This document shows, piece by piece, positions 23,369 through 56,938 of a stretch of DNA of 64,000 bases. Position 1 is the first letter of the stretch. Each line of letters starts with the position of its first letter. The stretch is taken from IMG/VR virus record IMGVR_UViG_3300045988_174402. One strand, given 5' to 3'. Below the pieces are notes generated by a model that saw only the letters and a list, made by a program, of their open reading frames with translations, did no database searches and was not told the DNA's origin. The position numbers and the translations under genes are program-made. The stretch comes from a virus.

Positions 23369-24547
23369 TTACGCGATTACCTTGAATTCTTTCGAGGCTT
23401 CTGAGCCATAATAAGAAACAGTAACTTTAAGTACATCACCTACTTCTGCAGTTTTTTCTGAAACAACAGATAATAGACCTGATGTTTTACCAATTTCGTA
23501 TTTACCATCAGCGTTTTCTACAGCATACGTAACATCTTTTGTAACATCGCCACTAATTGCAGGACCTGAAATAGTTTGCTTAATAGAAACTTTTCCAGCA
23601 TTAATGTCTGCAACAGTTAGATCAGCATCATTTAGAATTGTAATTTTGAAAAGTGCATCAGGAATGTCTACAATAACTTCTGAACCAAATGCTTCTTTGA
23701 TTGCTGTTTCAAACTCATCAGCAATAGAACTCAATACATAGAAAGTATGAGTAGTAATTGACTTCAGAGCCTGACCAACAGTACCTTGTCCATGAAGACC
23801 TCTACGAGGTGAGCAATATCCAAAAGAATATTGAACATAGAGACCACCCTTAACAGGATACTCCTCTTCATTTAAAGCATCATACCGAAGATTAGGATAA
23901 CTTGGGAATCGAAGATTCTCCTGAATCCATGCGGCTGTACCAACTTCCATTTCATTAGGAACATAGCTATCTTTGCGGTTAGCTTTAGAAAGTGCATCAA
24001 ATACTGTAACATACGTCCATTCGTTGCAAGCATCTGCAGGACATCCGTTGTTATCTGCAAGTTGTAATTCAGCTACTTTAATAGTCTGATGTGAATCAAT
24101 TCCACTAATTTTTACTTTATTAGTATCAACTTTTGTAACACGTGCAAATCTATAATTTTCAGGAATCGCCATTTCGATAGCTTTAATCATAATTTCCTGA
24201 GCATCAGCAAGATTGCTAGCATCAAGTTCGAATTCAGCCATAATTGGCTTACCAAACTTATACCAGGGATAAGCATAGTCTGAAAGATATTTTCCATCTA
24301 AACTAAAACCTACAATTACACGATAAATACCAGCGTCTGTTGGAACATTAAGTATAACTGAAGGAGCAACTCCTTTGTTGTACATTGTTTTATAAATAAC
24401 TCCATCAATTAGACCTTCTTTTCTATAATCTGCACAACGAAGTACACGAAATAGATTTACAGCTCCAGTCATTGCCTTGAAACGAGGAGTTACACCATCT
24501 TCAAGTACATTTGAATTGATTATTACTTCTTTTTGAAAATCAAACAT
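23369..24547 (-). CDS. putative major tail (tube/sheath-like) protein with C-terminal Ig-like domain
   Basis: Intact 392-aa ORF with no TGA, followed by a strong terminator. The C-terminal ~90 aa look like an Ig-like (Big_2-type) beta domain. The functional call rests on position only. Confidence 0.45.
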   Translation of the reverse strand: MFDFQKEVIINSNVLEDGVTPRFKAMTGAVNLFRVLRCADYRKEGLIDGVIYKTMYNKGVAPSVILNVPTDAGIYRVIVGFSLDGKYLSDYAYPWYKFGKPIMAEFELDASNLADAQEIMIKAIEMAIPENYRFARVTKVDTNKVKISGIDSHQTIKVAELQLADNNGCPADACNEWTYVTVFDALSKANRKDSYVPNEMEVGTAAWIQENLRFPSYPNLRYDALNEEEYPVKGGLYVQYSFGYCSPRRGLHGQGTVGQALKSITTHTFYVLSSIADEFETAIKEAFGSEVIVDIPDALFKITILNDADLTVADINAGKVSIKQTISGPAISGDVTKDVTYAVENADGKYEIGKTSGLLSVVSEKTAEVGDVLKVTVSYYGSEASKEFKVIA

Positions 24548-24574
24548 AGTTTTCTAATTTTTAAGTTAATAAAT

Positions 24575-25447
24575 TTATTTATTTCCAGGTACGGCTATAG
24601 TCTGATTAATAGGAACGTTTGTTTGTAATCTTGGATCACCTGCATTCTCTAATAATAGTCTAGTTACGATATTAATAATCTCGTAACAAACATAGTCTGG
24701 AAATTCCAGGGTTTGAGTATTATCTTCTGGTAATAATACATCATCCTGAGTCATGGAAACATACATAGGAGCTTTTACATAAGTAATATATACATTATTT
24801 AAACTTCAATTCGAATCGCCACTATGTATTTCCAAATTTACAGAAGATTGATTTACAATCCTTTTATATGGTTCTTTTAATGCATAAAATCGATATTTTC
24901 CATCCTCTGTTTTAATATAATTAGGACGATAACTACCTTCTTTAATTTCATTATCCATAACAGGATTTGTTACTGGTTGATCTTTTTCATTTCTATTAAT
25001 AATATAATAATATGGCTTCTTATGTGAAGGTTTCATATAATAATTATTAATAATACCTGCATAAAGATCTGCAGTTAATCTTTGACATGTTGAAGTAATA
25101 GTTCTTTGCACTCCATTTCCACATCTAGATTTATTTGAATCACTACCTGTAAATTCTGCAATACAATTCAACATATGTAAGTAATCTTTAGGAAGTTGTA
25201 GCTCTCAAACAGTATCATTAAATTCCTGTCTTGGAGCAATTTTACCTACTTTAATTACTGATGTAGTTTGTAAAAATCCTAAGTCATCTGAACTTTGTTG
25301 ATTGTACTCACTTCTATTATATACACTATTTATATATTGTTGAATTGCTTTATTAAACAAGTATATGAAGTCCTCAAGTAAAACTTGAGGAGCTTTCACC
25401 TTGTTGCATTCAACTAAAATGTATTCATATGCTTGTCTAATAGTCAT
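24575..25447 (-). CDS. hypothetical head/tail-joining region protein (290 aa)
   Basis: Track ORFs 25205..25447, 24806..25174 and 24575..24766 share one frame and are joined through two TGA codons. Confidence 0.6.
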
Positions 25448-25456
25448 TATATATTG

Positions 25457-26338
25457 TTATTTATTGCTTTTCTTCTTTTCCGTCTTTTCAACTTTTTCCT
25501 CAGCTTTATCTTCAGCCTTTTCCTCTACTGTTTCTTTTAAACTTAGTTTCTGAAGATCAGGGTATGTCTCTAATGTAATACCCTCGTAGATAGTTTTATT
25601 TGCAGGAATCTTCAAGAAGAGTAAGATAGATTCGTCAGTTGTACCTAGACGAACATCCCCATACATCCAAACTCCACTTTGAAGGTTAATAACACGTTGT
25701 TCTTTTGCATCAATAAGCAGCAGTTTAAGTGCTGTATCTGATCCTGTATAAAGGTCAATAACAACCATTGGATCTTTTTCCGCTCTTTGATATAAATAGT
25801 CCTGAACATCTGAGTCAGGAGCATTTCTCATTGATTTGCCAAGTAACCTTGTTTTGGTAAGTCTTCCTTTAGCAGAATCTTGTTCAATATAAGTGAACGC
25901 TTTTGTTACAAGCTTCATACGTTCGATACGTTTTTCAGATTCAACTCCAGGTCTTTCTACATAGAATTCAGCTTGACCATAACGTTTTGGACCTCCGTCA
26001 ATTAAAAGATTACCTTTTGAATCTTTAGAATCTCTTTCAGGTGCAATTAAGAATGAATCTTTAATGCAAGTCCAAATATTTCTTTCTAGAGGATTATCTA
26101 AATCAAACGTTTTACCATCATAAATCTCTATTCGTTCATCTTCCTTAATAAAGTAATTACTATCAGGACTATTAATTTCTGCTTCACTTAAGATCATTTC
26201 TGTATCTCCACTAGCGTCTACCTGACGAACTCTTTTTACAAAAGGATAGTTTGAACCATTTGCTTGTTTTAAAGGATTAATAAAGCAATGTGCTTTTTCC
26301 TTACCATATACATTTCTTAAAGTTACTATATTATTCAT
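25457..26338 (-). CDS. hypothetical capsid-associated protein (293 aa)
   Basis: Intact TGA-free ORF immediately downstream of the putative capsid gene. Confidence 0.7.
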   Translation of the reverse strand: MNNIVTLRNVYGKEKAHCFINPLKQANGSNYPFVKRVRQVDASGDTEMILSEAEINSPDSNYFIKEDERIEIYDGKTFDLDNPLERNIWTCIKDSFLIAPERDSKDSKGNLLIDGGPKRYGQAEFYVERPGVESEKRIERMKLVTKAFTYIEQDSAKGRLTKTRLLGKSMRNAPDSDVQDYLYQRAEKDPMVVIDLYTGSDTALKLLLIDAKEQRVINLQSGVWMYGDVRLGTTDESILLFLKIPANKTIYEGITLETYPDLQKLSLKETVEEKAEDKAEEKVEKTEKKKSNK

Positions 26339-26401
26339 ATTTATTCTTATTAAATTTATCTATACCAAATAATGATATCTAAGTTTTAAATATTTTGTAG
26401 A

Positions 26402-26419
26402 CTTCTCCCGAAGGAGAAG
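26402..26419 (-). other. stem-loop downstream of putative capsid gene
   Basis: Hairpin cttctcc-cgaa-ggagaag. It lacks a clean U-tract, so I do not call it a canonical terminator. Confidence 0.4.
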
Positions 26420-26449
26420 CCTACTAATATTCTATTCTATCTTTTTATA

Positions 26450-27859
26450 TTACTTTTCACTAACTAAGATAAAGCTACGATATGGGTTGAATACACCAAC
26501 ACCAGCATAACCCCAGTCAATAAGTTTAGTTGCAGCTACTGGGCTTGCAACAGGACCACTTTCACGTCCACTTCTACGACCAACACCCTCTAACCAGTTA
26601 TGGCAGAACTCATTGTTCTTGAATGTGAACATTGCAATAGCGGGTTTTCCACTAGCAGCATCAGCAGTCAGATCAAGGAAGATACCATATTTCTTCTCAG
26701 GGAATTCGATATCAAGAGCACGGTCAACTTTGAAAGTTACAGTATTACCTGCATACTCGTATGAGTTATAGGTTGCACCAACTTTGATATAATCATTAGC
26801 ACCCTTAGAGAACATGAATGTACCAACAGTCTTCCAGTCACGAAGATATCCTGACAGACTATCTTGAATTTCAGCCCACATAGGAGTATTGCAAATAAAG
26901 ATATATTTATTGCCAGTAGGATTATTTGATTTAGCGATCATGGCAAGGATAGCGGTATTCATAACTTTATTAGTCATCTTTGAATACACATATTTACCTG
27001 CGAAACGCTCAATCTGAGGAATAATACCATCGCCAGAGATAATAGGCTCACCTGTTTCAGGATCAAAGATCTTAGGTTTACCATTCTTATCTACGTTAGT
27101 CTTACCCCAAAGCAGTGCATTTGCACGAGCAGCCATGAAGTTATCAAGACAATCTTTTTCTGCAGCATTCATTTTGTAAACAGGATCACTTTCTGTTCCT
27201 TTACCAATCTGAATGAAAACGTCCTCCATTGCACGATACTTAGCAGTGTAGTCTACATCTGCACGGTGTGTTGCAATAAATGTACGATGCTTTTCAACAT
27301 TTGACTGATACTTAACGTATCCTTCCTCATGCATTTCAGGCTGATAGTTCGTTAAGAAACGAGTCTTCATACCTGGCTGGCAGAATTCAACATCAAGAGT
27401 AGCATTGTAATCTGAATCTTGTAGTTTACCTACAATCTCCCAGTCTCTATCTGATCTACGAACAGGACGTGACAGGAAGATAACTTGCTGACGTGATCCT
27501 TCGATGATCATTACGTCATTTCTCTGATAATAATTTTCAGGGAAGTGGAAGATGATATCAGTACCCTGAGCACCATCGCCATCAGGAACCTGTAGGAAAG
27601 GAATTCTCTTAATAAATCCTACATTAATGTCCCACTCTACCATAAATGAATTAATACTTTGGAAACTATTTTTCTTGTCTTTTTCCATTGTATATATATT
27701 CATCAGAGATTCAGTAAGGTACGATGCGGTATACTGCTCATAAAGTGATGATACAATACCAAGACGTGCAGGTTTTTCACCTAAAAATTTGTAAAAATCC
27801 TCATATGTACGAGTTGAACTCATCTGAGGACGTACTGTACTAAAACTAGAAATTCTCAT
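26450..27859 (-). CDS. putative major capsid protein (469 aa)
   Basis: Large intact ORF preceded by an acidic scaffold-like gene. All 7 Trp codons are TGG, and the region looks more G+C-rich. The call rests on position and size, not on a database search. Confidence 0.6.
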   Translation of the reverse strand: MRISSFSTVRPQMSSTRTYEDFYKFLGEKPARLGIVSSLYEQYTASYLTESLMNIYTMEKDKKNSFQSINSFMVEWDINVGFIKRIPFLQVPDGDGAQGTDIIFHFPENYYQRNDVMIIEGSRQQVIFLSRPVRRSDRDWEIVGKLQDSDYNATLDVEFCQPGMKTRFLTNYQPEMHEEGYVKYQSNVEKHRTFIATHRADVDYTAKYRAMEDVFIQIGKGTESDPVYKMNAAEKDCLDNFMAARANALLWGKTNVDKNGKPKIFDPETGEPIISGDGIIPQIERFAGKYVYSKMTNKVMNTAILAMIAKSNNPTGNKYIFICNTPMWAEIQDSLSGYLRDWKTVGTFMFSKGANDYIKVGATYNSYEYAGNTVTFKVDRALDIEFPEKKYGIFLDLTADAASGKPAIAMFTFKNNEFCHNWLEGVGRRSGRESGPVASPVAATKLIDWGYAGVGVFNPYRSFILVSEK

Positions 27860-30679: not shown

Positions 30680-31678
30680 CTAGGCCGCTGGTGTTGTAGT
30701 TGGCTCAAACAGAATACTGTTTGAATAACCTGCACAAGGACAAAGTGGATTATAAAGTGAACGTTGTACTGTATCAGTTCCTACTTCTACAGCAGCTACA
30801 CGGATAGGATAGAAAGTGTTATTAGCATAGTTAACAATCTTGTTGTCAGCACACATTCTACGTTCTGCTTCAAGACCTACCATACCAGCTACACTAGCAA
30901 TCTCCATCTTAGTAACTTTGCTTCTCCAAGGCTCTACAGCAGCATTAACAGCAGCTGCAGTTTCAAGTTTACCAATCCGATCAGCTAATACATCGAATTG
31001 ATCTCTTTGATTTTTATACAGCCCGAAGTCAGCGTCGATCTGGCTCTTGTAAAGTCCAAACATTTCACCATTAATAGTCTGACGATCGTTAAAACGAGCG
31101 TTTGCAGACAGTAAAGCAAAATCATAAAGAGCTTTCTGATTAGCTAACTCAGCATTGCAAGAGTGTTGCCAAGCTTGGAATGTCGTTGGACCACCAGTAA
31201 TAGCTTCAGCAGCTAAAGCACCAGCAGCTGCACTACCTGTATTTCCAAGTCCGAATAAACCTCTTCCGCTAAGAGCTAAAAGTCCTAATGCGGTTCCAGC
31301 AATACCTACAATATTTTCACATAAGGTCGTTAATCTTATGCAGTTCTCTTATGAACTTCTACATCTTTATATATACATGTAGTTAAGACTATATCTTCAT
31401 CCAATTTGGATGCTCCCCATTTCGCACTACTTAGTGCTACTCTCTTCCGAGATAGTCGTTGAACTTTCAAAGATATTTCTATCTAAGCTTAGCTGCTGAT
31501 TGTCCATTTCTGGAGTTTCCAGCAATTAAGGGAGTTTTGCATATAATATTACTATTATAAGGACCTAGTATATTAAGCCTAATCCAGTACCAGCTACACC
31601 TTTTGAAGCATATTCTTTTTCACCACAATTTTCGTATACATCTTTATGTACCATTTCTTTCTTTTCTACTACTTCCAT
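30680..31678 (-). CDS. intron-interrupted structural gene: exon 1 31581..31678, exon 2 30680..31319 (about 245 aa spliced)
   Basis: Exon 1 reads MEVVEKKEMVHKDVYENCGEKEYASKGVAGTG and then hits TAG just past the predicted splice site. The exon 2 frame is open from 31348 to TAG at 30680. The predicted junction GTG-F-ENIVGIAGTALGLL keeps the frame (98 nt + 640 nt). Confidence 0.6.
31320..31580 (-). ncRNA. group I intron (261 nt, no ORF)
   Basis: Minus-strand matches to the classical P/Q/R/S elements: aattgctggaaa (31516-31527), aatcagcagc (31492-31501), gttcaacgacta (31453-31464) and aagatatagtc (31387-31397). A U-G pair is possible at the 5' splice site (ctggatt/ggtcc), and the terminal nucleotide is G. 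The 54 nt at 31451-31504 are identical to 47749-47802. Confidence 0.75.
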
Positions 31679-31841: not shown

Positions 31842-32150
31842 CTAATTATTCTCTATAAATTTATCTAGATCTTTCTTATATCAAAACAATTCCTTAAATC
31901 CTATTTGTTTACGTCCTTTGGGAATCTTATTTGCTCTAACATAATTGTCAAAAGTAGCTCTACTAACTTTTAAGTACTTACAAGCTTGATATTTACTGAG
32001 TTTCTCGTTCTTATTAGTTATTTCAGAAAGATACTCAATTACTTCCTCACACTCTTCGGTACTAAGATTAGAATTACCAGTATCAATATCGTTAACAATC
32101 TTTAATAAAAGTTCCTTAATTAGTCGCATCATATCCGTATACTGCTCCAT
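31842..32150 (-). CDS. small helix-turn-helix DNA-binding protein (excisionase/AlpA-like HTH)
   Basis: The segment LSKYQACKYLKVSRATFDNYVRANKIPKGRK is HTH-like. The track ORF ends at TGA 31881, and the true stop is TAG at 31842-31844. The start overlaps the fibre gene end by 35 nt. Confidence 0.5.
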
Positions 32151-46505: not shown

Positions 46506-49050
46506 TTATACAACTTGTTTTATTTTATCATTATAAGGATTAGTATCAACTGTTTCTGCAGCTTGAATTTGAACTTGTTGCTGTTTTGTTTCAATAAGTT
46601 TATCGTTATAATCCTTATCGTTTTTAACTTTTTCTCTTTCAATAGCTACTTTTTCAGCTTCAAGTTGTAGTCTAGCTTGACTATTTTGTTCAAGTTGATT
46701 TTGTGATTGACCTAATTCCCTTTGTAATTGTTCATTTTGTTTCTGTAACTGTTGCAGATTTTGTTCATATTGCTGAAGTTGTTGCTGCAACTGAGAAACA
46801 CTATTATTTTCTTCCTTCTTAACAGCAGTAGCTTTAGCTACATAACGTTTAAGTTCGGACATACTATTGGCAGTTGCAATACTTACTGCCATATCGGGAT
46901 CTGACATTCCAGCTTTAATTAATTCAATATTAAGAGCCTTTACAGTTTCCATATCTTTAAAAGACTTAGAACTATCCTCAATATGTAAATCAAAATCTGT
47001 AAGTGTATAATGTTCAGGAAGTGCAGTAAATATTCTTGAATATTTATTACCTAACACAATAGTACCAGTAATACCATTTGGATATACTAATTTAGCTAAA
47101 TTAAGCATATCATAATTAGCTTCTTTATAAATGATATCCATGGTCTCAAAATATTGTTTAGTTAATAAACCTGACATTTTAACTCCAAGTTGAACATTAG
47201 AAACTGCATCTCTCTGTTCATATTGAGCTAATCTTTCAGGTAACACTCCTGTAATTGAAGAAGCTTGTTGTTCTACAGCTTGAATAGCTAATTGAATACC
47301 TTGAATAGCCTGAGCTTTAACAGTATCATCAAATCCATTAAAAATCGTATTAGGCATACCTTCATTACCTTCTTCCTTACTATTTATTAATGCTAAGCCA
47401 TTCTTTTTATATGCTTGCCAAGCTTTAACTCTATCAACTAATTTTTCACCTAAAAACGAAGGAATAAAAGAAATATCCATTCAATCTCCAACTCCTCCTG
47501 AAGAAGCAATAAGATTATCTCTAAAATATATAAGTAAATCATATTTCATTGTTTATTCGATATAGGTCGTTAATCTATATCCGTCTTTTTGACTGCTGCA
47601 TGTCACCATGCAGATTAGACTATATCATACAAATTTGATTTAAAATTAATTCAAATAAATTCTGTTTCATTATATTTCATAACTACTTATAATTAATTTT
47701 AAATTAAACTTGTCCCCGCGCTTCCACTTACTTAAGTGTACTCCTTTCGGATAGTCGTTGAACTTTCAAAGATATTTCTATCTAAGCTTAGCTGCTGATT
47801 GTCTTAAATTTACTATTATTCAATTTAAGGTTTTCCAGCAATTCACGGGGTTTATACAGGACTCATATAATTTAATCCTGTAGGTCCATAGTATGAGCTA
47901 TTAATGAATATGGATCTCCATTTTTATCTAAGAAAAACATTCCGTTAACAGATAATCTACATCTACTAGGACAATCTGCACTTCTTACAATATACTTTGA
48001 TTCTCCACGAGTAATATATACTTCTGAACCAATTTTTACTCCTTCATGTCTTGTTAATTCTCCAGTTTTATAATCTGCTTCAATTCATTCAACTTCATAT
48101 ACAGGAATAAGATGATTCTTTATAGGTTCTATTGAATCATAATCTCCAGGCCATCCTGGATGTGCTTCAAGTCCTGCAAGAATACCTGTATGTAAATTAT
48201 CAGCTCGTAAATTAGGCTCAGCAGGTTTACCAACATATCTAACCAAATAAGTAGGAGATGTTGAATCTGCAGTTTGTTGCATATCTCTAATTTTCTTAGC
48301 TGCTTCTGTAGTTAATTCTGATCTGAATGTATTTAAGATATCCTCTCTTGACATTCATTTTCTAATAACAACTCTCTTAGAATCTGCAAGATAAGGAGAA
48401 TTTGGATTACGTTCTATAAATGTATTAACGGGATTTAAAATTTCAATATTGACATTTGAATTACTTTCTGTAGGTTTTACTCTATAGTAACAAGTACCTG
48501 TAACAAGTAAATCTGTAAGTAATTCTGCCATTTTACGTTTTAAATCGATGTTTCTTGATTGTCTTAAATAATCAAGAATATTTTGTGCAGCAATTTCATA
48601 TTCCGAAACAAAAGATTGATCAATATCTTGTTGAATTGAGTTGATTTCTTTTTCAATAAAAGGATCATTTACAATTTCTTTATTTTCAATAATAGCTGCA
48701 ATAATGTTATTCTTTAAATACTGTTGCAAATAATTAAATACTTCTGCACTAATTTTAAGTTGCTTTTCTCTCATTATATTTGAAACAGTCTTTTCATCTT
48801 TGCAAGATACTTTTAAATCTTGATTTAAACCTAGATATTCTCCAACTAATACATCAATATGTTTCTTAATTAATGGTGTAAAACTAACTGATGTAGGAGT
48901 CCCAATTCCGTAATTTTCTTCTAGGTGTTTGAATTGATCTGCATCTCTACGACAATGATAATATCCATAAGCTTTTCTTATAGCAACTTTATCATATACA
49001 AGATTACCTATCGCATCATTAATCTTCTTTACTTCATTCTCTATCACCAT
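46506..49050 (-). CDS. putative portal protein, intron-interrupted: exon 1 47875..49050, exon 2 46506..47546 (738 aa spliced)
   Basis: Track ORFs 48355..49050 and 48085..48354, plus the open frame down to 47875, share one frame. Exon 2 contains track ORF 46506..47480. The predicted junction HTMDLQD|KYDLLIYF is in phase 0. The portal call rests on size and position beside the terminase. Confidence 0.55.
47547..47874 (-). ncRNA. group I intron (328 nt, no ORF)
   Basis: P1 helix tacaggaU|taaattatatga-Gtcctgta with a U-G pair at the splice site. P element gaattgctggaaaa lies at 47831-47844, Q and R lie within the 54-nt block 47749-47802, and S element gatatagtct lies at 47627-47636. The terminal nucleotide is G at 47547, and TAA codons block the exon frame inside the insert. 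Confidence 0.75.
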
Positions 49051-49327
49051 ATTCTAATACTATATATTGATTTCCTTCACCTGGAGTAGTCATTTCTCCA
49101 GAATAATATTTTGTTCTATCTAGTTGTCTGTTTCTAAGTTCTTTTTCAAGAAATTCGAAAAAACCTTCTTCATCACCTTCATAGACTAAAACTAATGGAG
49201 CTTTTCATTGATTCAAATCTAAACTTAATTTCCATTGATTACCATCTATAGTTAATGTAAAGTCTCCAGTGTAATATGCACACATAGCCTTTTCAATTAT
49301 TTCATATACTTTATCAACGAGTTCCAT
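49019..49327 (-). CDS. small hypothetical protein (102 aa) between terminase and portal
   Basis: ATG at 49325-49327 (MELVDKVYEII), two internal TGA codons, TAA at 49019-49021. It overlaps both neighbouring genes. Confidence 0.45.
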
Positions 49328-51620
49328 TCTTTTGCGGTATTACTCCATATTCTTTATAGCCTTTTTCATTAGTGAACCATCCAATATTTTCTCATTCTTT
49401 CGCTAATTTATCTTGAGCAGCAGGTCGTATATTCATTAATTCTTCATCTGCAATTTCTGCCATTTCCATAGCTGCGATAATATCGAACTTTCGTTTATTT
49501 TCTCAAGAATATTTTAACAATTGCTCAAGCATTTCATCAATATCAATTGAATAACAGTAATCATTAACAAAATTATTAATTAATTCAAGACCGTGCTTGA
49601 TAATAGCTTCTGTAGCTGGTACACCAATCATTTGTGAGTTGCCTCTTTTCATATCTCCAAGAGTTGAAGCAGGACGTTTCATAAATAGACTATCTTTCTT
49701 TTTTTCTTTAAAATATGTAACAATACTAATCTTAGTATGTTCTAGTAGTGCTTTACAATTATATCATACTAATAATTTCATTGCTACATCATATGCTTCT
49801 CGAATATCTCGAGGACGATCTTTATAGATCGCAACATATTTCGCTTCTTGTAATCCATATATACGTTTCTTAATAACTATACAGAAATCAGATACATCTG
49901 TTGAGGTAGAAGAATCTCCAGAACCTTGGTCAATAGAGTCTATTCCTGCAACATATAGATTTTTTAATACAAGACCGTCTTCATCTCGAAGTGGTCTTTC
50001 GTATATAGTAATTTTACTATTTGGATTACTTACAACTTTTACTTTTGTTAAATCAGGAGTATCTCCAGAACGATCTCATAATAATGATACGTATTCTGGT
50101 TTTAATCCTGCTTTAAATATCCTAATTTGGGTTAATCTATCTGCAATTGCAATTGAATCAAAGATATTTTCACCCTGTTTATACAACGCTTCATTTGGAA
50201 TAAAACAGTGCTCTGCACAATAATCAAGTAGATCTTTACCACTTAGCTTTTTACGTTCTTCCTCATAAAACTTTTTAAATTCTTCAGATTGTGTAACTCC
50301 TCTTGTATCTAAAAATTCTTCTCGTAAACTAAACTTATGAGCTGGAATAAAGAAAGCTGTTAATTGTGGCTTTCTATCTTCTGTATCATAATTTTTATAT
50401 GGAAGTACATTATACCCTTCTGGTTTTGCAAAAATGTTTGATAAACCTTCAAGTGCCATATCATCACCACCTGTACCTAAAGCAATACGTGTTCCAAAAT
50501 GATAACCACCAAGCTCAACAAGGGCATTACCTTGAATCCAACTTTTAGTTAAATATTTATTAGATCCTGCTTCTTCATAGATTAATCTATCGACACGATC
50601 ACCACGAATCTTATCAGATGTATCAGCAATTACTGAATCAATTTCTGACATTCAACCATATTCAACTCCATCAGGAGTAACTTGAGATGCACGTTTAGTA
50701 TCTGCATTATTAACTTTTTGCCGTAAATGGCGCATACCTCCATTAGTATTCATGTCTAATCAGTTTAACTGCTTTCAACATTTAGTTTTTAAAGGAGTAA
50801 GTTTACCTTCTGCAGCACAAGTTAATAAAGAACGATAACCTCTATTAGTTATATAAGGTCTTACTGCTAAACAAGCAACAATCTCAGATAGTCCAATACC
50901 ACGAGCTTTTAATATAGCTACATCTTTATGTAGTCTTTCAGCCATTTCAACATAATGAAAGAATTCATATTGTTTAGCTAGAAATGTAGGAAACTTTTCA
51001 TTACGACCAGCTCCACCTCTAGCTCCTTCAGAAATAACTTCCATTCTATAGAAATTTAAAAAGAAATAATGATCTCCTGTAATTCTATATTTACCAACTG
51101 TATAACCTTCAGTACAACGTTTATATTGTTCTCTTCAGAAATCATTATAAGGCTTTGAATCTGCAGGATATTCAGTATATGATCCAGTTCTATCATAAAT
51201 TTGAGCTAGTTCATTAAAAGGAGTAGGATCAAAATCTAAACCTTGAGTTTCATTAATTGGGCGGTATCCAGTTAATTCATATGATAATTCTGGATCAAAG
51301 TAAAGTACGTCTTCGGTGACCGCCACATCTCACAAACCATCTCTCTTTTTATAAAAATCAGTTGCAGTATACTCAAATTGTTCTGTAGTATCTTCTTTCT
51401 GATCTCCAAGCATTTCTTGTAATTGCTTTTTTAATTCTTCTTCAAATTTATCTGAAAAAGATTGAGGAGTTGGTTCAGGACCTTTTATTGATTCTCTAAG
51501 CTCTTTATATTTCTCTTTAGTTGTTTTCTTTCTTTTGACTTCTGATTCTTCTTTATTTTTTATCTGTTCAAGCATTTTTTTACGTGCTTGAGACATTGAA
51601 GATTTAATTGTCTTTACCAT
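49311..51620 (-). CDS. terL: terminase large subunit with N-terminal Lys/Glu-rich extension (769 aa)
   Basis: Track ORFs 51330..51620, 51135..51326, 50775..51044 and 50076..50651 share one frame and are joined by TGA. The stop is TAA at 49311-49313. T4-type terminase-like segments are present (ILKARGIGLSE, DRLIYEEAGS, TAFFIPAHK, AGIDSIDQGSGDS). Confidence 0.7.
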
Positions 51621-53937: not shown

Positions 53938-54195
53938 TTACTTGTTCTTATAAAATTTTAAATCTTTTGTTGAGAATACTGCTTCACGTAAAACCATATT
54001 CTTATCAAATCATCTACATTTAATACCTTTAAAGATATTAGTTATTTCATTACCATGTTTGTATGATTGTGTAATTTTTTCTACTACATACATAACAGGA
54101 GATGTAAGTTCACCATGTTTTAAAGTGACTACATCTCCTGGGTTAAAAAACGTTTTTTCAATTTCGTTTATCATATTATTCTTTGTCCTTTTCAA
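53938..54195 (-). CDS. small DUF2158 (YodC)-like protein (85 aa)
   Basis: The pattern FNPGDVVTLKHGELTSPVMYVV...GIKCRW-F resembles YodC/DUF2158. TGA at 54010 is read through to TAA at 53938-53940. Confidence 0.45.
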
Positions 54196-54712
54196 TTACT
54201 CGACATATAATGTTTTGTTCACTGATAGCGTAATAACCCATATTATTGAATGGAACAGGTACTACAGAATTTCTGTAATATATATCCTCTCCAGGTTTTA
54301 CGTATTTACATTCGGGTCCTGCAGAAATAACAGTACCACATGCAATAAATTGTTCAGCTCTCTCCATCTCACCAGTATCATCAGACTTATATGTATCTGC
54401 AAAAAGATCTCCTGGAAGAATTAAACCTGAAGCACTTGTCTTAATTTCTCTATAAGGATTTTTTTCAAATGGTTTTATAATAACAGTATATCCTGTTGCA
54501 GCTACCCTCATTTTAGATGCATCTTTTGTGCCTTTGTTTAATTCAAGTAATCTATTTGCTGTTAAAAGCTGTTCTTCTTCCATTTTTTTATTGAGAGCAG
54601 CAATTTCTTCAGGAGTTAATTCCTTTGTTTCATGTTTAACGTTTGCTCCCATAAGATGAACTCCCATTTCTTGCATGTGTGCATTTCCTAAAAGATTTTT
54701 TCCCATAATCAT
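54176..54712 (-). CDS. GroES/gp31-like co-chaperonin
   Basis: The C-terminal ~95 aa follow the Cpn10 pattern (GYTVIIKPFE...KTSASGLILPG...ACGTVISAGP...VKPGEDIYY). The ORF is TGA-free. Confidence 0.5.
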   Translation of the reverse strand: MIMGKNLLGNAHMQEMGVHLMGANVKHETKELTPEEIAALNKKMEEEQLLTANRLLELNKGTKDASKMRVAATGYTVIIKPFEKNPYREIKTSASGLILPGDLFADTYKSDDTGEMERAEQFIACGTVISAGPECKYVKPGEDIYYRNSVVPVPFNNMGYYAISEQNIICRVIEKDKE

Positions 54713-54734: not shown

Positions 54735-55007
54735 TTACCATTTATTTATTAAGCATCTTGCGTATGCAAGTCTTGTTTTTGCAGATAATCTACATCCGCA
54801 TCCTTTTCTATATCCAATTTTTGGTCTATCTGAATAGTCTGTTTTATTATTTTCATTAATATATAATCTAGGATTACATATCGGACCCATTGGTGTTTCT
54901 TTGTATAATGGACATTCTTTACAAATTGCTAATCTTTTTTCAGATAAGTCTTCATTTTTATTAATTGCTTCATTAACATGTCCACTAATAATATCTATTA
55001 GTCCCAT
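54735..55007 (-). CDS. small Cys-rich (zinc-binding type) protein
   Basis: Intact ORF with CKECP...C...CGCR...C spacing. Confidence 0.55.
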   Translation of the reverse strand: MGLIDIISGHVNEAINKNEDLSEKRLAICKECPLYKETPMGPICNPRLYINENNKTDYSDRPKIGYRKGCGCRLSAKTRLAYARCLINKW

Positions 55008-55009
55008 AA

Positions 55010-56938
55010 TTAAAATACTATAGGTTTATCTAAATCTAATTCAGATTTAATCTTAACGTCTCTTTTATAATGTTTAAGCATTCTTTCAACATCTGATTTT
55101 AAATAATCACATTCATGTTCTGAAATATGATTGTTGTGATCAATATGAATTAATACTAATTTTTTAATATTAAAGTTTGGATTAATTTTTTGTAGTAAGT
55201 AAGCATATAATGATAACTGCAACGAATAATGATAAAAATTACAATCCATAATATTATCCATTGGGAATTTCATCATAGTTCTACTTTTAGTAAATTTATT
55301 ATAAAATGATTCTTTTTCTAATTTCTTATTAGTATTATGTGTAACTATCATTGAATCACCGAATAAAAACGTGTGTGATGGACTGTCAACTTCTAAGCAT
55401 TGCGTTGCTACTGTATCAACTCTTTCTACAGATATAATATTTCTAAATGTATTCTTATTTTTAGATGGGAAGTCGATATCTTGATTTCTTACTAAAAAGG
55501 GATTTAATCCATCAGTTGAAAAACATACATCTCATCCTTTAAATATCTTTCCATTACATTTTTTATCTACTTCAAAAACAGTAGCTTTTATGCCTAATGT
55601 ACTTACTAACCTTAATAAATCTTCAGCTTGTCATTTCTGAGTAGTTCCCATTACAAATCTTTTTCTAGATTCATGATAGTAACCATCAGTATCCATTAAC
55701 CCTCTAAGCAAATCAAGTCTTTGTTGATAAGAGGCTCGCATATATAAATCAGGTATAAACTTATTATTTAGTATTCCTAGATCGTTAAGTTTTTTTCTAA
55801 TATTATATATAGTTCGCATTTCCGCAGATTTTCCGTCAGAAAGATCTCCTCCAAAAGTATATCCTCTATTTTCTATTTCTTCCCATACTTTAGAGTTTAT
55901 ATTAGTGATAATTCCACATGACTTAGAGCCATCTCCTAGTCAACATCCCAGTACATAAGGATCTATAGGAAGTTCTATTTCTGGAAGATTTAGAGGATTT
56001 GCGTTCATTATTTTTGGGATATTGTACGAGGTTCTTGGTTTATCAATTAACCACTTTGCAATATCTTCTGTGGTCATAACTACTTCCCTAAATGTTTTAT
56101 CTATATTCCTAAAAGAAATAAGTCATCTATGTTCATGGTCTGCCACAATCGACTCTCCGTTATCAAAAGTTATTTTAAAACATGGATTGTAATGGATATC
56201 TGATTTATGTAACACTTTAGTTATATTTCCTTCTTTATCAAATATCTCTTCTCCCTCCTTTATATCCTTAATAGTTGTCCATCCGTTTTTAGTTGGAATT
56301 TTTGTATCTAGAGGGAGTCCTTTATAATCGTATATATAAATATCATTACCGTCTTTAATGAGTAAGTCTAACTGTCCTGCAATTCTTAGTATTCCATCAT
56401 CTGATTTATAACTAATCATAAATTCAGGATATACTCCTTTTTCTAAATCTAACTGATAGTATCCTTTTTTGCAAGTAAACTTTCCTCCAAGTCCAAACTT
56501 TTTTAGATCTTGTTCTTCAGATTGATAATACATGTTTTCAAATTGAGCATGTATTTTTGTACCTCTTTCACAAGATTTATTTCTTTCTACTTCATACGAT
56601 TGAAGTATTTCTGCCCGTTTATTTTCAAACTCTTCTTCGTTGATATTTAACTTTTCAAGTAAAGTTGGATTTCAACGTTTTGTATTTAGTAATGTAGTTT
56701 TAACAACTTTAAAAATTTCTGGTTCTACTAAAGCTTCGCAAGCTTTATATGCAGATCAGAATGCTGAATCAAACTCATTAACATATTTATGTATCAATGT
56801 TGTTACAGATACATAAGGCTTATTATCATATTTATCTAAGTACAGATGTTTTGCATCTGAATAAATAACATCTTCTGTTTCTTTGTCTACTTGATATCCA
56901 TTAACATATTTTTCCTTTACATTACTTAATTTTGGCAT
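55010..56938 (-). CDS. PD-(D/E)XK (RecB/Cas4-type) nuclease interrupted by an intein (642-aa precursor)
   Basis: Track ORFs 56756..56938, 56123..56533, 55631..55819 and 55010..55351 share one frame and are joined by TGA. Extein motifs are GTKIHAQFE, GQLDLL...IYIYDYK upstream of the insert and YSLQLSLYAYLL (QxxxY) downstream. Confidence 0.7.
55334..56320 (-). mobile_element. intein (about 329 aa) with LAGLIDADG homing endonuclease, class-3-like
   Basis: Block A GLPLDTKIPT, block B GESIVADHEHR-W, LAGLIDADG motifs YVLGCWLGDGS and LLRGLMDTDGYY, blocks F/G TQCLEVDSPSHTFLFGDSMIVTHN, followed by Thr as the +1 residue. Confidence 0.75.

What the first reader, a model, noticed from the sequence alone, without database searches (positions are those of the whole stretch)
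55334..56320. Class-3-type intein at the catalytic DYK motif of a PD-(D/E)XK nuclease, with its signature Trp encoded by TGA
The nuclease reads ...GQLDLLIKDGNDIYIYDYK, then a 329-aa insert, then TNKKLEKE...YSLQLSLYAYLL. The insert has intein blocks A, B, F and G and two LAGLIDADG motifs. It lacks an N-terminal Cys/Ser/Thr (it starts GLPLDT). It has Trp at block B position 12 (GESIVADHEHR-W), Cys at block F position 4 (TQ-C-LEV) and Thr at block G position 5 (IV-T-HN). This is the W-C-T triplet described for class 3 inteins. The B:12 Trp is the TGA at 56123-56125, so both precursor translation and splicing competence depend on the recoded codon. Splicing would restore a canonical D-Y-K-(G)-T active-site segment.
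Basis: partly seen in the sequence, partly recalled or inferred. Interest (0 to 1): 0.8.

Follow-up and report, generated by a model that had tools for sequence, protein, structure and literature searches.

The report
Class 3 intein in phage nuclease
A gut phage that reads TGA as tryptophan has a self-splicing, mobile protein insert (a class 3 intein with its own homing endonuclease) in the active-site motif of a RecB-like nuclease; the call is correct, but this kind of insert at this site is already known from other phages.

Summary
Window 55010..56938 (minus strand, TGA read as Trp) encodes a 642-aa precursor. It is a 313-aa RecB-like PD-(D/E)XK nuclease interrupted between Lys206 of the D-Y-K motif and Thr by a 329-aa insert at 55334..56320.

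An intein-free allele in sister phages fixes the boundaries. It is identical at 919 of 942 nt, and all 23 differences lie in the 79 nt just 5' of the insertion point.

The insert aligns best to solved class 3 DnaB1 inteins (6bs8, E 6e-18). Trp66, Cys308 and Thr327 fall on Trp67, Cys118 and Thr137. Residue 1 is Gly and residue +1 is Thr. About 100 relatives keep all of these residues and the same D-x-K|T site. Both LAGLIDADG motifs are intact and dN/dS is about 0.06.

The B:12 Trp codon is indeed TGA. This is ordinary here: 64% of Trp codons in the window's ORFs are TGA, and a standard-code relative has TGG at the same positions.

Class 3 inteins at this nuclease motif are published for actinobacteriophages. 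Inteins inside recoded genes are published for crAss-like phages. This is a new member of a known kind, with clean evidence of ongoing homing. No splicing or cleavage was tested.

The parts
55010..56938 (-). Precursor gene: 642 codons plus TAA, with 6 in-frame TGA read as Trp. It encodes a RecB-like PD-(D/E)XK nuclease carrying an intein.
   Evidence: Pfam PDDEXK_1 and LAGLIDADG_3. PHROG 298 exonuclease, E 6e-26, for the spliced product.
56321..56938 (-). N-extein, aa 1-206. It holds the GTKIHAQFE motif, AGQLDLL (Asp191) and D204-Y-K206 at its very end (56321..56329).
   Evidence: D191, D204 and K206 are invariant in 94 aligned homologs. Coordinates.
56321..56399 (-). A 79-nt stretch just 5' of the insertion point. 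It holds all 23 nucleotide differences from the intein-free allele and is read as a one-sided co-conversion tract.
   Evidence: L001 and L003 differ from our spliced CDS only at CDS nt 540-618, with no differences in nt 1-539 or in the 324-nt C-extein. Other intein-bearing alleles carry a similar KDGNDIYIxDYK flank.
55334..56320 (-). Intein, 329 aa: Gly1 ... His328-Asn329. A HINT splicing domain is split by a LAGLIDADG homing endonuclease domain.
   Evidence: A model of the 81%-identical relative matches PI-SceI, class 3 DnaB1 inteins and I-DmoI.
56282..56320 (-). Block A, GLPLDTKIPTKNG. Residue 1 is Gly, which is not a nucleophile.
   Evidence: It aligns to ALALDTPLPTPSG of 6bs8. G1 is present in 96 of 96 relatives that cover the junction.
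56123..56158 (-). Block B, GESIVADHEHRW: Asp B:7, His B:10 and Trp B:12. The Trp codon is the TGA at 56123..56125.
   Evidence: It aligns to Asp62, His65 and Trp67 of Msm DnaBi1. D, H and W are present in 104 of 104 relatives. The codon is TGG in standard-code relatives L006 and L007.
56180..56182 (-). Cys47 of the intein (NPCFK), between blocks A and B. It is the counterpart of Msm DnaBi1 Cys48.
   Evidence: Aligned and conserved in 58 of 61 family members. In DnaBi1, Cys48 is needed for splicing and forms a redox disulfide with Cys118 (PMC6195587). Whether it plays this role here is inferred only.
55925..55960 (-). LAGLIDADG motif 1 (block C), PYVLGCWLGDGS, with the acidic residue Asp130.
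   Evidence: Asp130 is conserved in 57 of 61 members.
55679..55717 (-). LAGLIDADG motif 2 (block E), LDLLRGLMDTDGY, with the acidic residue Asp212.
   Evidence: Pfam LAGLIDADG_3, E 8e-7. Asp212 is conserved in 57 of 61 members. dN/dS for the endonuclease domain is 0.059.
55361..55408 (-). Block F, ATQCLEVDSPSHTFLF. Cys F:4 is Cys308 (55397..55399), the predicted initiating nucleophile.
   Evidence: It aligns to Cys118 of 6bs8 (RCVEVD). The Cys is present in 112 of 112 relatives.
55331..55354 (-). [quoted passage not shown]
   Evidence: It aligns to PTHN of 6bs8. T, H and N are present in 111 of 111 relatives; +1 is Thr in 108 and Ser in 3.
55010..55333 (-). C-extein, aa 536-642 plus the stop codon. 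It starts TNKK and holds the QLSLY (Q-x-x-x-Y) nuclease motif at 55205..55219.
   Evidence: It is 100% identical at the nucleotide level to the intein-free allele. Q574 is nearly invariant.

Best explanation
The gene encodes a RecB-like PD-(D/E)XK exonuclease of a TGA-recoded, divergent crAss-like gut phage. A full-length class 3 intein interrupts it exactly between the catalytic Lys of motif III (D-Y-K) and the conserved Thr that follows.

Proposed mechanism, inferred from the class 3 pathway established for other inteins:
1. The ribosome reads all six TGA codons as Trp and makes a 642-aa precursor. The nuclease should be inactive in this form because motif III is split.
2. Cys308 (block F:4) attacks the Lys206-Gly207 peptide bond, because Gly1 cannot do so. 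This gives a block F thioester branch.
3. The N-extein is passed to the side chain of Thr+1, giving the block G branch.
4. Asn329 cyclises and releases the intein.
5. An O-to-N acyl shift gives the 313-aa nuclease with ...IYDYK-TNKK... restored.
6. The freed 329-aa intein is a LAGLIDADG homing endonuclease. It cuts intein-free alleles at the DYK|TNK coding site during co-infection, and repair copies the intein in together with some flanking extein sequence.

The B:12 Trp being TGA-encoded is a consequence of the phage's code. It is not a special control point.
For: Shown here:
- Boundaries. The intein-free allele P0001 (loci L001 to L004) is 313 aa and matches our spliced CDS at 919 of 942 nt. 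All 33 intein-free homologs show no residue in the insert columns.
- Class 3 signature. The best PDB matches are class 3 DnaB1 inteins: 6bs8 at E 6e-18, then 6rix and 6riy. W66, C308 and T327 align to W67, C118 and T137; D61 and H64 align to D62 and H65.
- Conservation. G1, D, H, W, C, T, HN and +1 T/S are invariant in the 96 to 112 relatives that cover each position, and every junction follows D-x-K.
- Fold. An AlphaFold model of the 81%-identical relative has pLDDT 89.4. Foldseek returns PI-SceI (E 5e-18), class 3 DnaB1 inteins (TM 0.77-0.81) and I-DmoI.
- Selection. dN/dS is 0.063 for the whole intein and 0.059 for the endonuclease domain.
- Mobility. All 23 differences from the empty allele lie in the 79 nt 5' of the site. 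The identical intein (0 of 987 differences) sits in different extein backgrounds in IMG/VR contigs L012 and L013.
- TGA is Trp. All four TGA codons in the intein are TGG in standard-code L007. In L006, TGG sits at three of those four positions and at extein Trp61. Codon 469 is TGA or TGG among close alleles.
- Host protein. PDDEXK_1 rises from 21 to 31.5 bits when the insert is removed. PHROG 298 exonuclease matches at E 6e-26.

From the literature:
- Class 3 definition and mechanism: PMC2807308.
- The same kind of intein at the PD-(D/E)XK motif of mycobacteriophage RecB-like nucleases: PMC5050341. Astraea gp208 aligns as ELK|SLACST..EHLW..RCITV..PTHN|T.
Against: - No biochemistry was done. 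Splicing, the block F branched intermediate and endonuclease cleavage are all inferred from sequence.
- Standard intein splicing-domain profiles (Pfam Intein_splicing and Hint, NCBIfam intein N- and C-terminal models) gave no hit at E up to 1. Support for the splicing domain therefore rests on pairwise and family alignments and on the fold.
- The donor of the 79-nt tract was not found. The tract matches the nearest intein-bearing relative L007 only partly: 23 of 30 nt next to the site.
- No suppressor tRNA or host is known for this window, so how TGA is decoded is not shown.
Confidence: 0.85

Rival explanations
1. The intein is as described, but the TGA at B:12, together with the other five TGA codons, acts as a regulatory gate. 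In a host that uses the standard code, the precursor would be made, and could fold into a splicing-competent form, only once a phage suppressor tRNA is expressed. That would time nuclease activation.
For: The window is recoded and its TerL is crAss-like. Published work proposes that recoding times late-gene expression in crAss-like and other gut phages (PMC7886860; PMC12386605). The gene lies on the same strand as the packaging and structural genes TerL, portal and MCP.
Against: TGA use in this gene (6 of 9 Trp codons) equals the window average of 64%, so nothing singles out this gene or codon B:12. Two TGA codons lie upstream in the N-extein, so B:12 adds no extra gate. Close alleles swap TGA and TGG freely at codon 469. 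The same intein family works with TGG in standard-code phages. No suppressor tRNA was found in the DNA held.
Confidence: 0.1
2. The insert is a decayed intein that no longer splices or homes. It would be a remnant that leaves the nuclease dead or only partly functional.
For: No splicing assay exists. Pfam and NCBIfam splicing-domain models do not detect it. Degraded inteins are known, for example the Arthrobacter Arth_1007 pseudogene (PMC3196547, listed).
Against: Every catalytic position is intact and invariant across roughly 100 relatives. dN/dS is 0.06 in both the splicing and endonuclease parts. Four close alleles read in full have a 642-aa frame with no internal stop. The identical intein appears in different extein backgrounds, and the sharp one-sided tract indicates recent movement.
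Confidence: 0.05
3. The intein splices by a class 1 or class 2 route: either a nucleophile at the true N-terminus, or direct attack by Thr+1 on the N-terminal junction as in KlbA inteins. Cys F:4 would not be the nucleophile.
For: Class is assigned here from sequence signatures only. Some WCT inteins begin with Ser or Cys (PMC2807308), and Astraea gp208 has Ser at position 1.
Against: The empty-site alignment leaves Gly as residue 1, with no ambiguity in the junction. Class 2 inteins lack the WCT triplet by definition (PMC2807308), whereas here it is invariant. The closest solved relative uses Cys118 as the initiating nucleophile, and a C118A mutant does not splice (PMC6195587).
Confidence: 0.05

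Closest known systems
Class 3 inteins in RecB-like / Cas4-family exonucleases of actinobacteriophages (MP-Catera gp206 type; for example Mycobacterium phage Astraea gp208, cluster C1). Sources: Kelley et al. 2016, PMC5050341, and bioRxiv 10.1101/2025.01.02.630785.
   Same: The host protein family and the insertion point are the same: after the Lys of nuclease motif III, (D/E)-x-K|T (ELK|..|T in Astraea; EFK|T in ScoobyDoobyDoo). Both have the WCT triplet, D-x-x-H in block B, terminal His-Asn, Thr+1, and a canonical LAGLIDADG endonuclease of about 330 aa. tblastn gives 33% identity over the whole intein at E 2e-44.
   Different: The host is an AT-rich (31% GC), TGA-recoded crAss-like gut phage, not a high-GC actinophage. 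Residue 1 is an invariant Gly, against Ser in Astraea gp208. Four of the seven Trp codons in the intein are TGA. The exteins share only the nuclease motifs.
Mycobacterium smegmatis DnaB intein 1 (DnaBi1; PDB 6bs8) and M. chimaera DnaB-1 intein (6rix, 6riy). These are solved class 3 mini-inteins.
   Same: They are the best sequence matches among solved structures (E 6e-18). The splicing domain is about 45% identical. W67, C118, T137, D62, H65, H138, N139 and Cys48 all have aligned counterparts here. The fold match has TM 0.77-0.81.
   Different: They are mini-inteins with no endonuclease domain. They sit in the DnaB helicase, start with Ala1, and DnaBi1 was spliced with Ser as +1 in the reporter. 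They are bacterial, not phage.
Mycobacteriophage Bethlehem DnaB intein, the class 3 prototype (Tori et al. 2010, PMC2807308).
   Same: It shares the defining signature: a non-nucleophilic residue 1, the WCT triplet, Thr+1, and an obligate block F Cys.
   Different: The extein is different (a helicase P-loop). It was not aligned directly here. Its block B:7 is Ser, against Asp here.
Inteins within recoded genes of crAss-like phages (Yutin et al. 2021, PMC7886860).
   Same: An intein and reassigned stop codons are combined in one gene of a gut crAss-like phage. The Zeta group has genomes of 145-192 kb, TGA or TAG recoding, and many introns and inteins. This fits the 174-kb IMG/VR contig that carries this allele and the group I intron in the window.
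   Different: The published example is a TerL with Hint-Hop inteins and TAG recoding. The passages read do not mention a class 3 intein in the nuclease. Assignment of this window to the Zeta group is inferred, not tested by phylogeny.

Membership tests
Class 3 intein | HINT splicing domain with blocks A, B, F and G | tested here: met
   phmmer to 6bs8 covers blocks A-B (residues 2-67) and F-G (295-329), E 6e-18. The model of the 81% relative matches class 3 DnaB1 inteins at TM 0.77-0.81.
Class 3 intein | No Cys/Ser/Thr nucleophile at intein position 1 | tested here: met
   Residue 1 is Gly. The boundary is fixed by a 98%-identical empty allele and by 33 of 33 intein-free homologs. G1 is present in 96 of 96 relatives.
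Class 3 intein | Trp at block B:12 | tested here: met
   W66 aligns to Trp67 of Msm DnaBi1 and is present in 104 of 104 relatives. The TGA codon is TGG in L006 and L007.
Class 3 intein | Cys at block F:4 | tested here: met
   C308 aligns to the catalytic Cys118 and is present in 112 of 112 relatives.
Class 3 intein | Thr at block G:5, followed by His-Asn | tested here: met
   T327-H328-N329 align to T137-H138-N139 and are present in 111 of 111 relatives.
Class 3 intein | [quoted passage not shown] | tested here: met
   Thr536. Relatives have Thr in 108 cases and Ser in 3. Intein-free homologs also have Thr or Ser there.
Class 3 intein | Splicing that starts with attack by the block F Cys and passes through a block F branched intermediate | not testable with these tools
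   This needs expression of the precursor with C308A, T+1A and N329A mutants, followed by gels or mass spectrometry.
LAGLIDADG homing endonuclease (intein-borne) | Two LAGLIDADG motifs with acidic catalytic residues, in a double alpha-beta-beta-alpha-beta-beta-alpha fold | tested here: met
   The motifs lie at intein residues 121-132 and 202-214, with Asp130 and Asp212. Pfam LAGLIDADG_3 matches at E 8e-7. Fold matches to PI-SceI and I-DmoI.
LAGLIDADG homing endonuclease (intein-borne) | Site-specific cleavage of the intein-free allele | not testable with these tools
   There is only indirect support: a one-sided 79-nt tract of differences, the identical intein in different extein backgrounds, and dN/dS of 0.059.
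RecB-like PD-(D/E)XK nuclease (Pfam PDDEXK_1) | Motif II Asp, motif III (D/E)-x-K and the Q-x-x-x-Y motif, with a profile match above the curated cut-off | tested here: met
   The spliced product scores 31.5 bits against a cut-off of 22. PHROG 298 exonuclease matches at E 6e-26. D191, D204 and K206 are invariant and Q574 nearly so.
Cas4 (CRISPR-associated, Fe-S cluster nuclease) | Four conserved Cys that bind an Fe-S cluster (one N-terminal, three C-terminal) | not tested
   Only a weak PHROG 1706 'CRISPR/Cas system associated' hit was found (E 9e-6). No Cys pattern analysis was run, so the protein is filed as RecB-like, not as Cas4.

The most novel reading that the evidence does not exclude
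Splicing of this nuclease intein might be conditional. The family keeps a second Cys (Cys47, in 58 of 61 members) at the position of Msm DnaBi1 Cys48. In DnaBi1 that residue forms a reversible disulfide with the catalytic block F Cys and blocks splicing under oxidative stress. If the same redox switch works here, a gut phage would hold its recombination or exonuclease enzyme inactive until it is in a reducing, actively growing anaerobic host. This would sit on top of the need for TGA suppression to make the precursor at all, giving two layers of post-transcriptional control on one enzyme.
Probability: 0.08. Interest if true: 0.6.

Novelty: new member of a known kind. Interest (0 to 1): 0.3.

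Why it matters
The finding extends a known intein allele (class 3, at nuclease motif III) from high-GC actinophages to abundant AT-rich, TGA-recoded crAss-like phages of the human gut. The same intein family occurs on both sides of a genetic-code boundary: all four of its TGA Trp codons are TGG in the 81%-identical relative.

It also gives an unusually clean natural pair of filled and empty alleles, identical except for a 79-nt one-sided tract. That pair, plus the identical intein in different extein backgrounds, is useful for studying homing and co-conversion in uncultured phage populations.

There is a practical point for annotation. Standard-code gene calling breaks this gene into fragments, and Pfam and NCBIfam intein splicing models miss it. 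Such genes will often be annotated as fragments or as 'homing endonuclease'.

It does not change what is known about intein mechanisms.

Tried and rejected
I modelled P0121, whose intein is 81% identical, instead.
- Pfam and NCBIfam scans for intein splicing-domain models gave nothing at E up to 1. Only LAGLIDADG_3, Hom_end and an intein-containing Tes model over the endonuclease region matched.
- blastn of the gene against the phage collection found a single unannotated record, MT835539.1. It then proved useful as a standard-code comparator.
- I looked for a suppressor tRNA in the window and in 10 related loci and found none. The decoding mechanism stays open.
- I tried to identify the donor of the 79-nt tract among intein-bearing relatives. 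L007 and L006 match it only partly, so the donor is not in hand.
- A paper search on the term 'PD-(D/E)XK' was rejected by the tool's syntax.
- I considered TGA as Gly (code 25) and rejected it. TGA positions align with TGG/Trp in standard-code relatives and with Trp in actinobacterial homologs.
- I considered a shifted boundary that would reveal Cys1/Ser1 and rejected it. The intein starts with G and ends with N, while the extein junction is K|T, so no cyclic shift is possible.
Full report
**What is in the sequence**

Window 55010..56938 on the minus strand is a single 642-codon reading frame if TGA is read as Trp. Under the standard code it breaks into seven pieces at six in-frame TGA codons. 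The whole window behaves this way. ORFs of at least 100 aa sum to 20,563 aa when TGA is read through, against 10,354 aa under the standard code. They tile the minus strand tightly and contain 177 TGA against 100 TGG.

The protein reads ...AGQLDLLIKDGNDIYIYDYK | GLPLDTKIPTKNG ... MIVTHN | TNKKLEKE ... YSLQLSLYAYLL. The 329-aa middle part maps to 55334..56320, exactly the coordinates in the finding. The TGA at 56123..56125 is codon 272, which is intein residue 66, the Trp that ends GESIVADHEHRW.

**Boundaries of the insert**

A search with the hypothetical spliced product found 2,759 homologs. The best, P0001, is 313 aa, the same length as the spliced product, and 98% identical. P0001 is encoded in sister phages with the same gene order (loci L001 to L004).

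At the DNA level the L001 and L003 alleles match our joined exteins at 919 of 942 positions. All 23 differences lie at CDS positions 540-618, the 79 nt immediately 5' of the insertion point. There are no differences in the 539 nt before that or in the 324-nt C-extein.

In a 94-sequence alignment, all 33 intein-free homologs have no residue in the insert columns. The flanking residues D204, K206 and T/S536 are conserved in both filled and empty alleles. The insert starts with G and ends with N, and the extein junction is K|T, so the boundary cannot be shifted. Residue 1 is therefore Gly, and no hidden Cys1, Ser1 or Thr1 exists.

**What the insert is**

phmmer against all PDB sequences gives class 3 inteins as its three best hits: M. 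smegmatis DnaBi1 (6bs8, E 6e-18) and M. chimaera DnaB-1 (6rix, 6riy). The alignment places HEHRW on AQHQW, TQCLEVD on VRCVEVD and IVTHN on VPTHN.

The DnaBi1 paper names Trp67, Cys118 and Thr137 as the WCT triplet. It names Asp62 and His65 as the block B D-x-x-H motif, and His138-Asn139 as the C-terminus (PMC6195587). Our Trp66, Cys308, Thr327, Asp61, His64, His328 and Asn329 are their aligned counterparts.

The published definition of class 3 is a non-nucleophilic residue 1 that co-varies with the WCT triplet, plus Thr or Ser at +1 (PMC2807308). All of these criteria are met.

A search with the insert alone found 383 relatives. In the best 120, each position was scored in the sequences that cover it. 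G1 (96 of 96), Asp B:7, His B:10 and Trp B:12 (104 of 104), Cys F:4 (112 of 112), and Thr-His-Asn (111 of 111) are invariant. The +1 residue is Thr in 108 and Ser in 3. Every N-junction follows D-x-K.

The middle of the insert holds two LAGLIDADG motifs with their acidic residues (Pfam LAGLIDADG_3, E 8e-7).

I modelled P0121, whose intein is 81% identical, using a 93-sequence alignment. Mean pLDDT was 89.4. Foldseek against the PDB returns PI-SceI (E 5e-18), the class 3 DnaB1 inteins (target TM 0.77-0.81) and I-DmoI. This is the architecture of a HINT domain split by a homing endonuclease.

**The host protein**

With the insert removed, the Pfam PDDEXK_1 score rises from 21.4 to 31.5 bits against a cut-off of 22. 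PHROG 298 'exonuclease' matches at E 6e-26. D191 (AGQLDLL), D204 and K206 (DYK) are invariant, and Q574 (QLSLY) is nearly so. These are the RecB-type motifs II, III and Q-x-x-x-Y, an assignment that rests on general knowledge of the family. The intein thus splits motif III from the conserved Thr that follows it, which should leave the precursor inactive. That last point is an inference.

**Is it alive and mobile?**

Compared with the 81%-identical intein in L007, dN/dS is 0.063 overall and 0.059 for the endonuclease domain, with synonymous sites near saturation. Both activities therefore appear to be under purifying selection.

The sharp one-sided tract of differences next to the insertion site is what co-conversion during homing would leave. 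Other intein-bearing alleles carry a similar KDGNDIYIxDYK flank, although the actual donor was not found.

Seven IMG/VR contigs, up to 174,492 bp, carry the exact N-junction. Among them the identical intein (0 of 987 differences) sits next to an N-extein with 17 differences (L012), or next to a C-extein with 30 differences (L013). The same intein in different extein backgrounds is a sign of horizontal spread within the phage population.

**The TGA point**

The B:12 Trp is indeed TGA, and TGA does mean Trp here.
- In L007, which uses the standard code in this gene (0 TGA, 10 TGG), all seven intein Trp residues are conserved. Our four TGA codons are TGG there.
- In MT835539.1, another standard-code faecal phage with the same nuclease and intein, TGG sits at B:12, at block C, at FKGW and at the extein FWS position.
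- Actinobacterial homologs also have Trp at B:12 and in block C.
- Close alleles swap TGA and TGG at codon 469.

This is not a special feature, however. Six of the nine Trp codons in this gene are TGA, matching the window average of 64%. Two TGA codons already lie upstream in the N-extein, so B:12 adds no extra gate.

**Comparison with what is known**

Kelley et al. 2016 reported 40 inteins in RecB-like nucleases of cluster C1 mycobacteriophages, at a single site in the PD-(D/E)XK motif, and grouped them with class 3 inteins (PMC5050341). A 2025 preprint counts 138 Cas4-exonuclease inteins in actinophages. They are class 3 with canonical LAGLIDADG domains and are inserted at EFK|T, RecB motif III (10.1101/2025.01.02.630785).

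I checked one directly. Astraea gp208 aligns as ELK|SLACST...EHLW...RCITV...PTHN|T, with 33% identity over the full intein at E 2e-44.

The window's TerL finds crAss-like phages at 28-30% identity. Yutin et al. 2021 describe crAss-like phages, especially the 145-192 kb Zeta group, with TGA or TAG recoding, many introns and inteins, and an explicit case of an intein and recoding in one gene (PMC7886860).

Both halves of the finding therefore have precedent. What is new is this particular combination and host lineage, plus the invariant Gly1.

**Verdict**

The emphasis on the recoded codon is not warranted. I rate this a new member of a known kind, with interest about 0.3. Its main value is as a clean natural example of intein homing in uncultured, recoded gut phages, and as a warning for annotation. 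The splicing route, the endonuclease activity and the decoding mechanism remain inferred.

Noticed in passing
window 49311..51620 (minus strand), junction near 50475; L001:10710-12942: The window's large terminase (769 aa, phrog_6681) has no intein. In the sister phages L001 and L002, whose nuclease lacks the intein, TerL carries one starting with Cys (IALG|CVCAGTKV...FITHN|TGGD) at the position that reads IALG|TGGD here. Intein presence is therefore reciprocal between closely related (about 96-99% identical) genomes.
   Followed up: partly
window 31366..31585 (minus strand): A group I catalytic intron (Rfam RF00028, 92 bits against a gathering score of 50, full-length model match) lies between ORFs 30680..31063 and 31842..32150. 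This suggests a split gene.
   Followed up: no
window 46506..47549 and 47872..49050 (minus strand): The portal protein appears split into two ORFs. The 392-aa ORF matches phrog_6547 profile positions 52-325, and the 347-aa ORF matches positions 441-784. About 320 nt lie between them, and no Rfam intron hit was found there at the gathering threshold.
   Followed up: no
window 23369..27859 (minus strand): Trp codon use is uneven. The major-head-like gene 26450..27859 has 0 TGA and 7 TGG. Its neighbours 25457..26338 and 23369..24547 have 0/2 and 0/3. The window's ORFs overall have 177 TGA to 100 TGG. These presumably highly expressed structural genes seem to avoid the recoded codon.
   Followed up: no
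window 56180..56182 (minus strand; intein Cys47): A Cys between blocks A and B is conserved in 58 of 61 family members and aligns with Cys48 of Msm DnaBi1. There, that residue is required for splicing and forms a redox-sensitive disulfide with the catalytic block F Cys (PMC6195587). That paper calls the residue non-conserved, but in this nuclease-intein family it is conserved.
   Followed up: partly
L002:7211-8110 and L004:2625-3539; window about 54783..54792: Sister phages L002 and L004 carry an extra free-standing NUMOD1/I-HmuI-like homing endonuclease gene just downstream of the 90-aa zinc-ribbon-like gene that follows the nuclease. L001 has an 87-aa ORF there and the window has neither. 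This neighbourhood is a hotspot for mobile endonucleases.
   Followed up: no
L007:9776-11722: The closest intein relative outside the window's own allele (P0121, 81% identity) lies in a phage whose nuclease gene has 0 TGA and 10 TGG. Its gene call seems to start too late: an in-frame MRIDKRNKE... extension upstream adds about 62 aa of N-extein. The same intein family therefore occurs in both standard-code and TGA-recoded phages.
   Followed up: partly
window 54176..54712 (minus strand): A 178-aa protein with a weak match to GroES co-chaperonin (phrog_3188, E 5.6e-6) lies two genes downstream of the nuclease.
   Followed up: no
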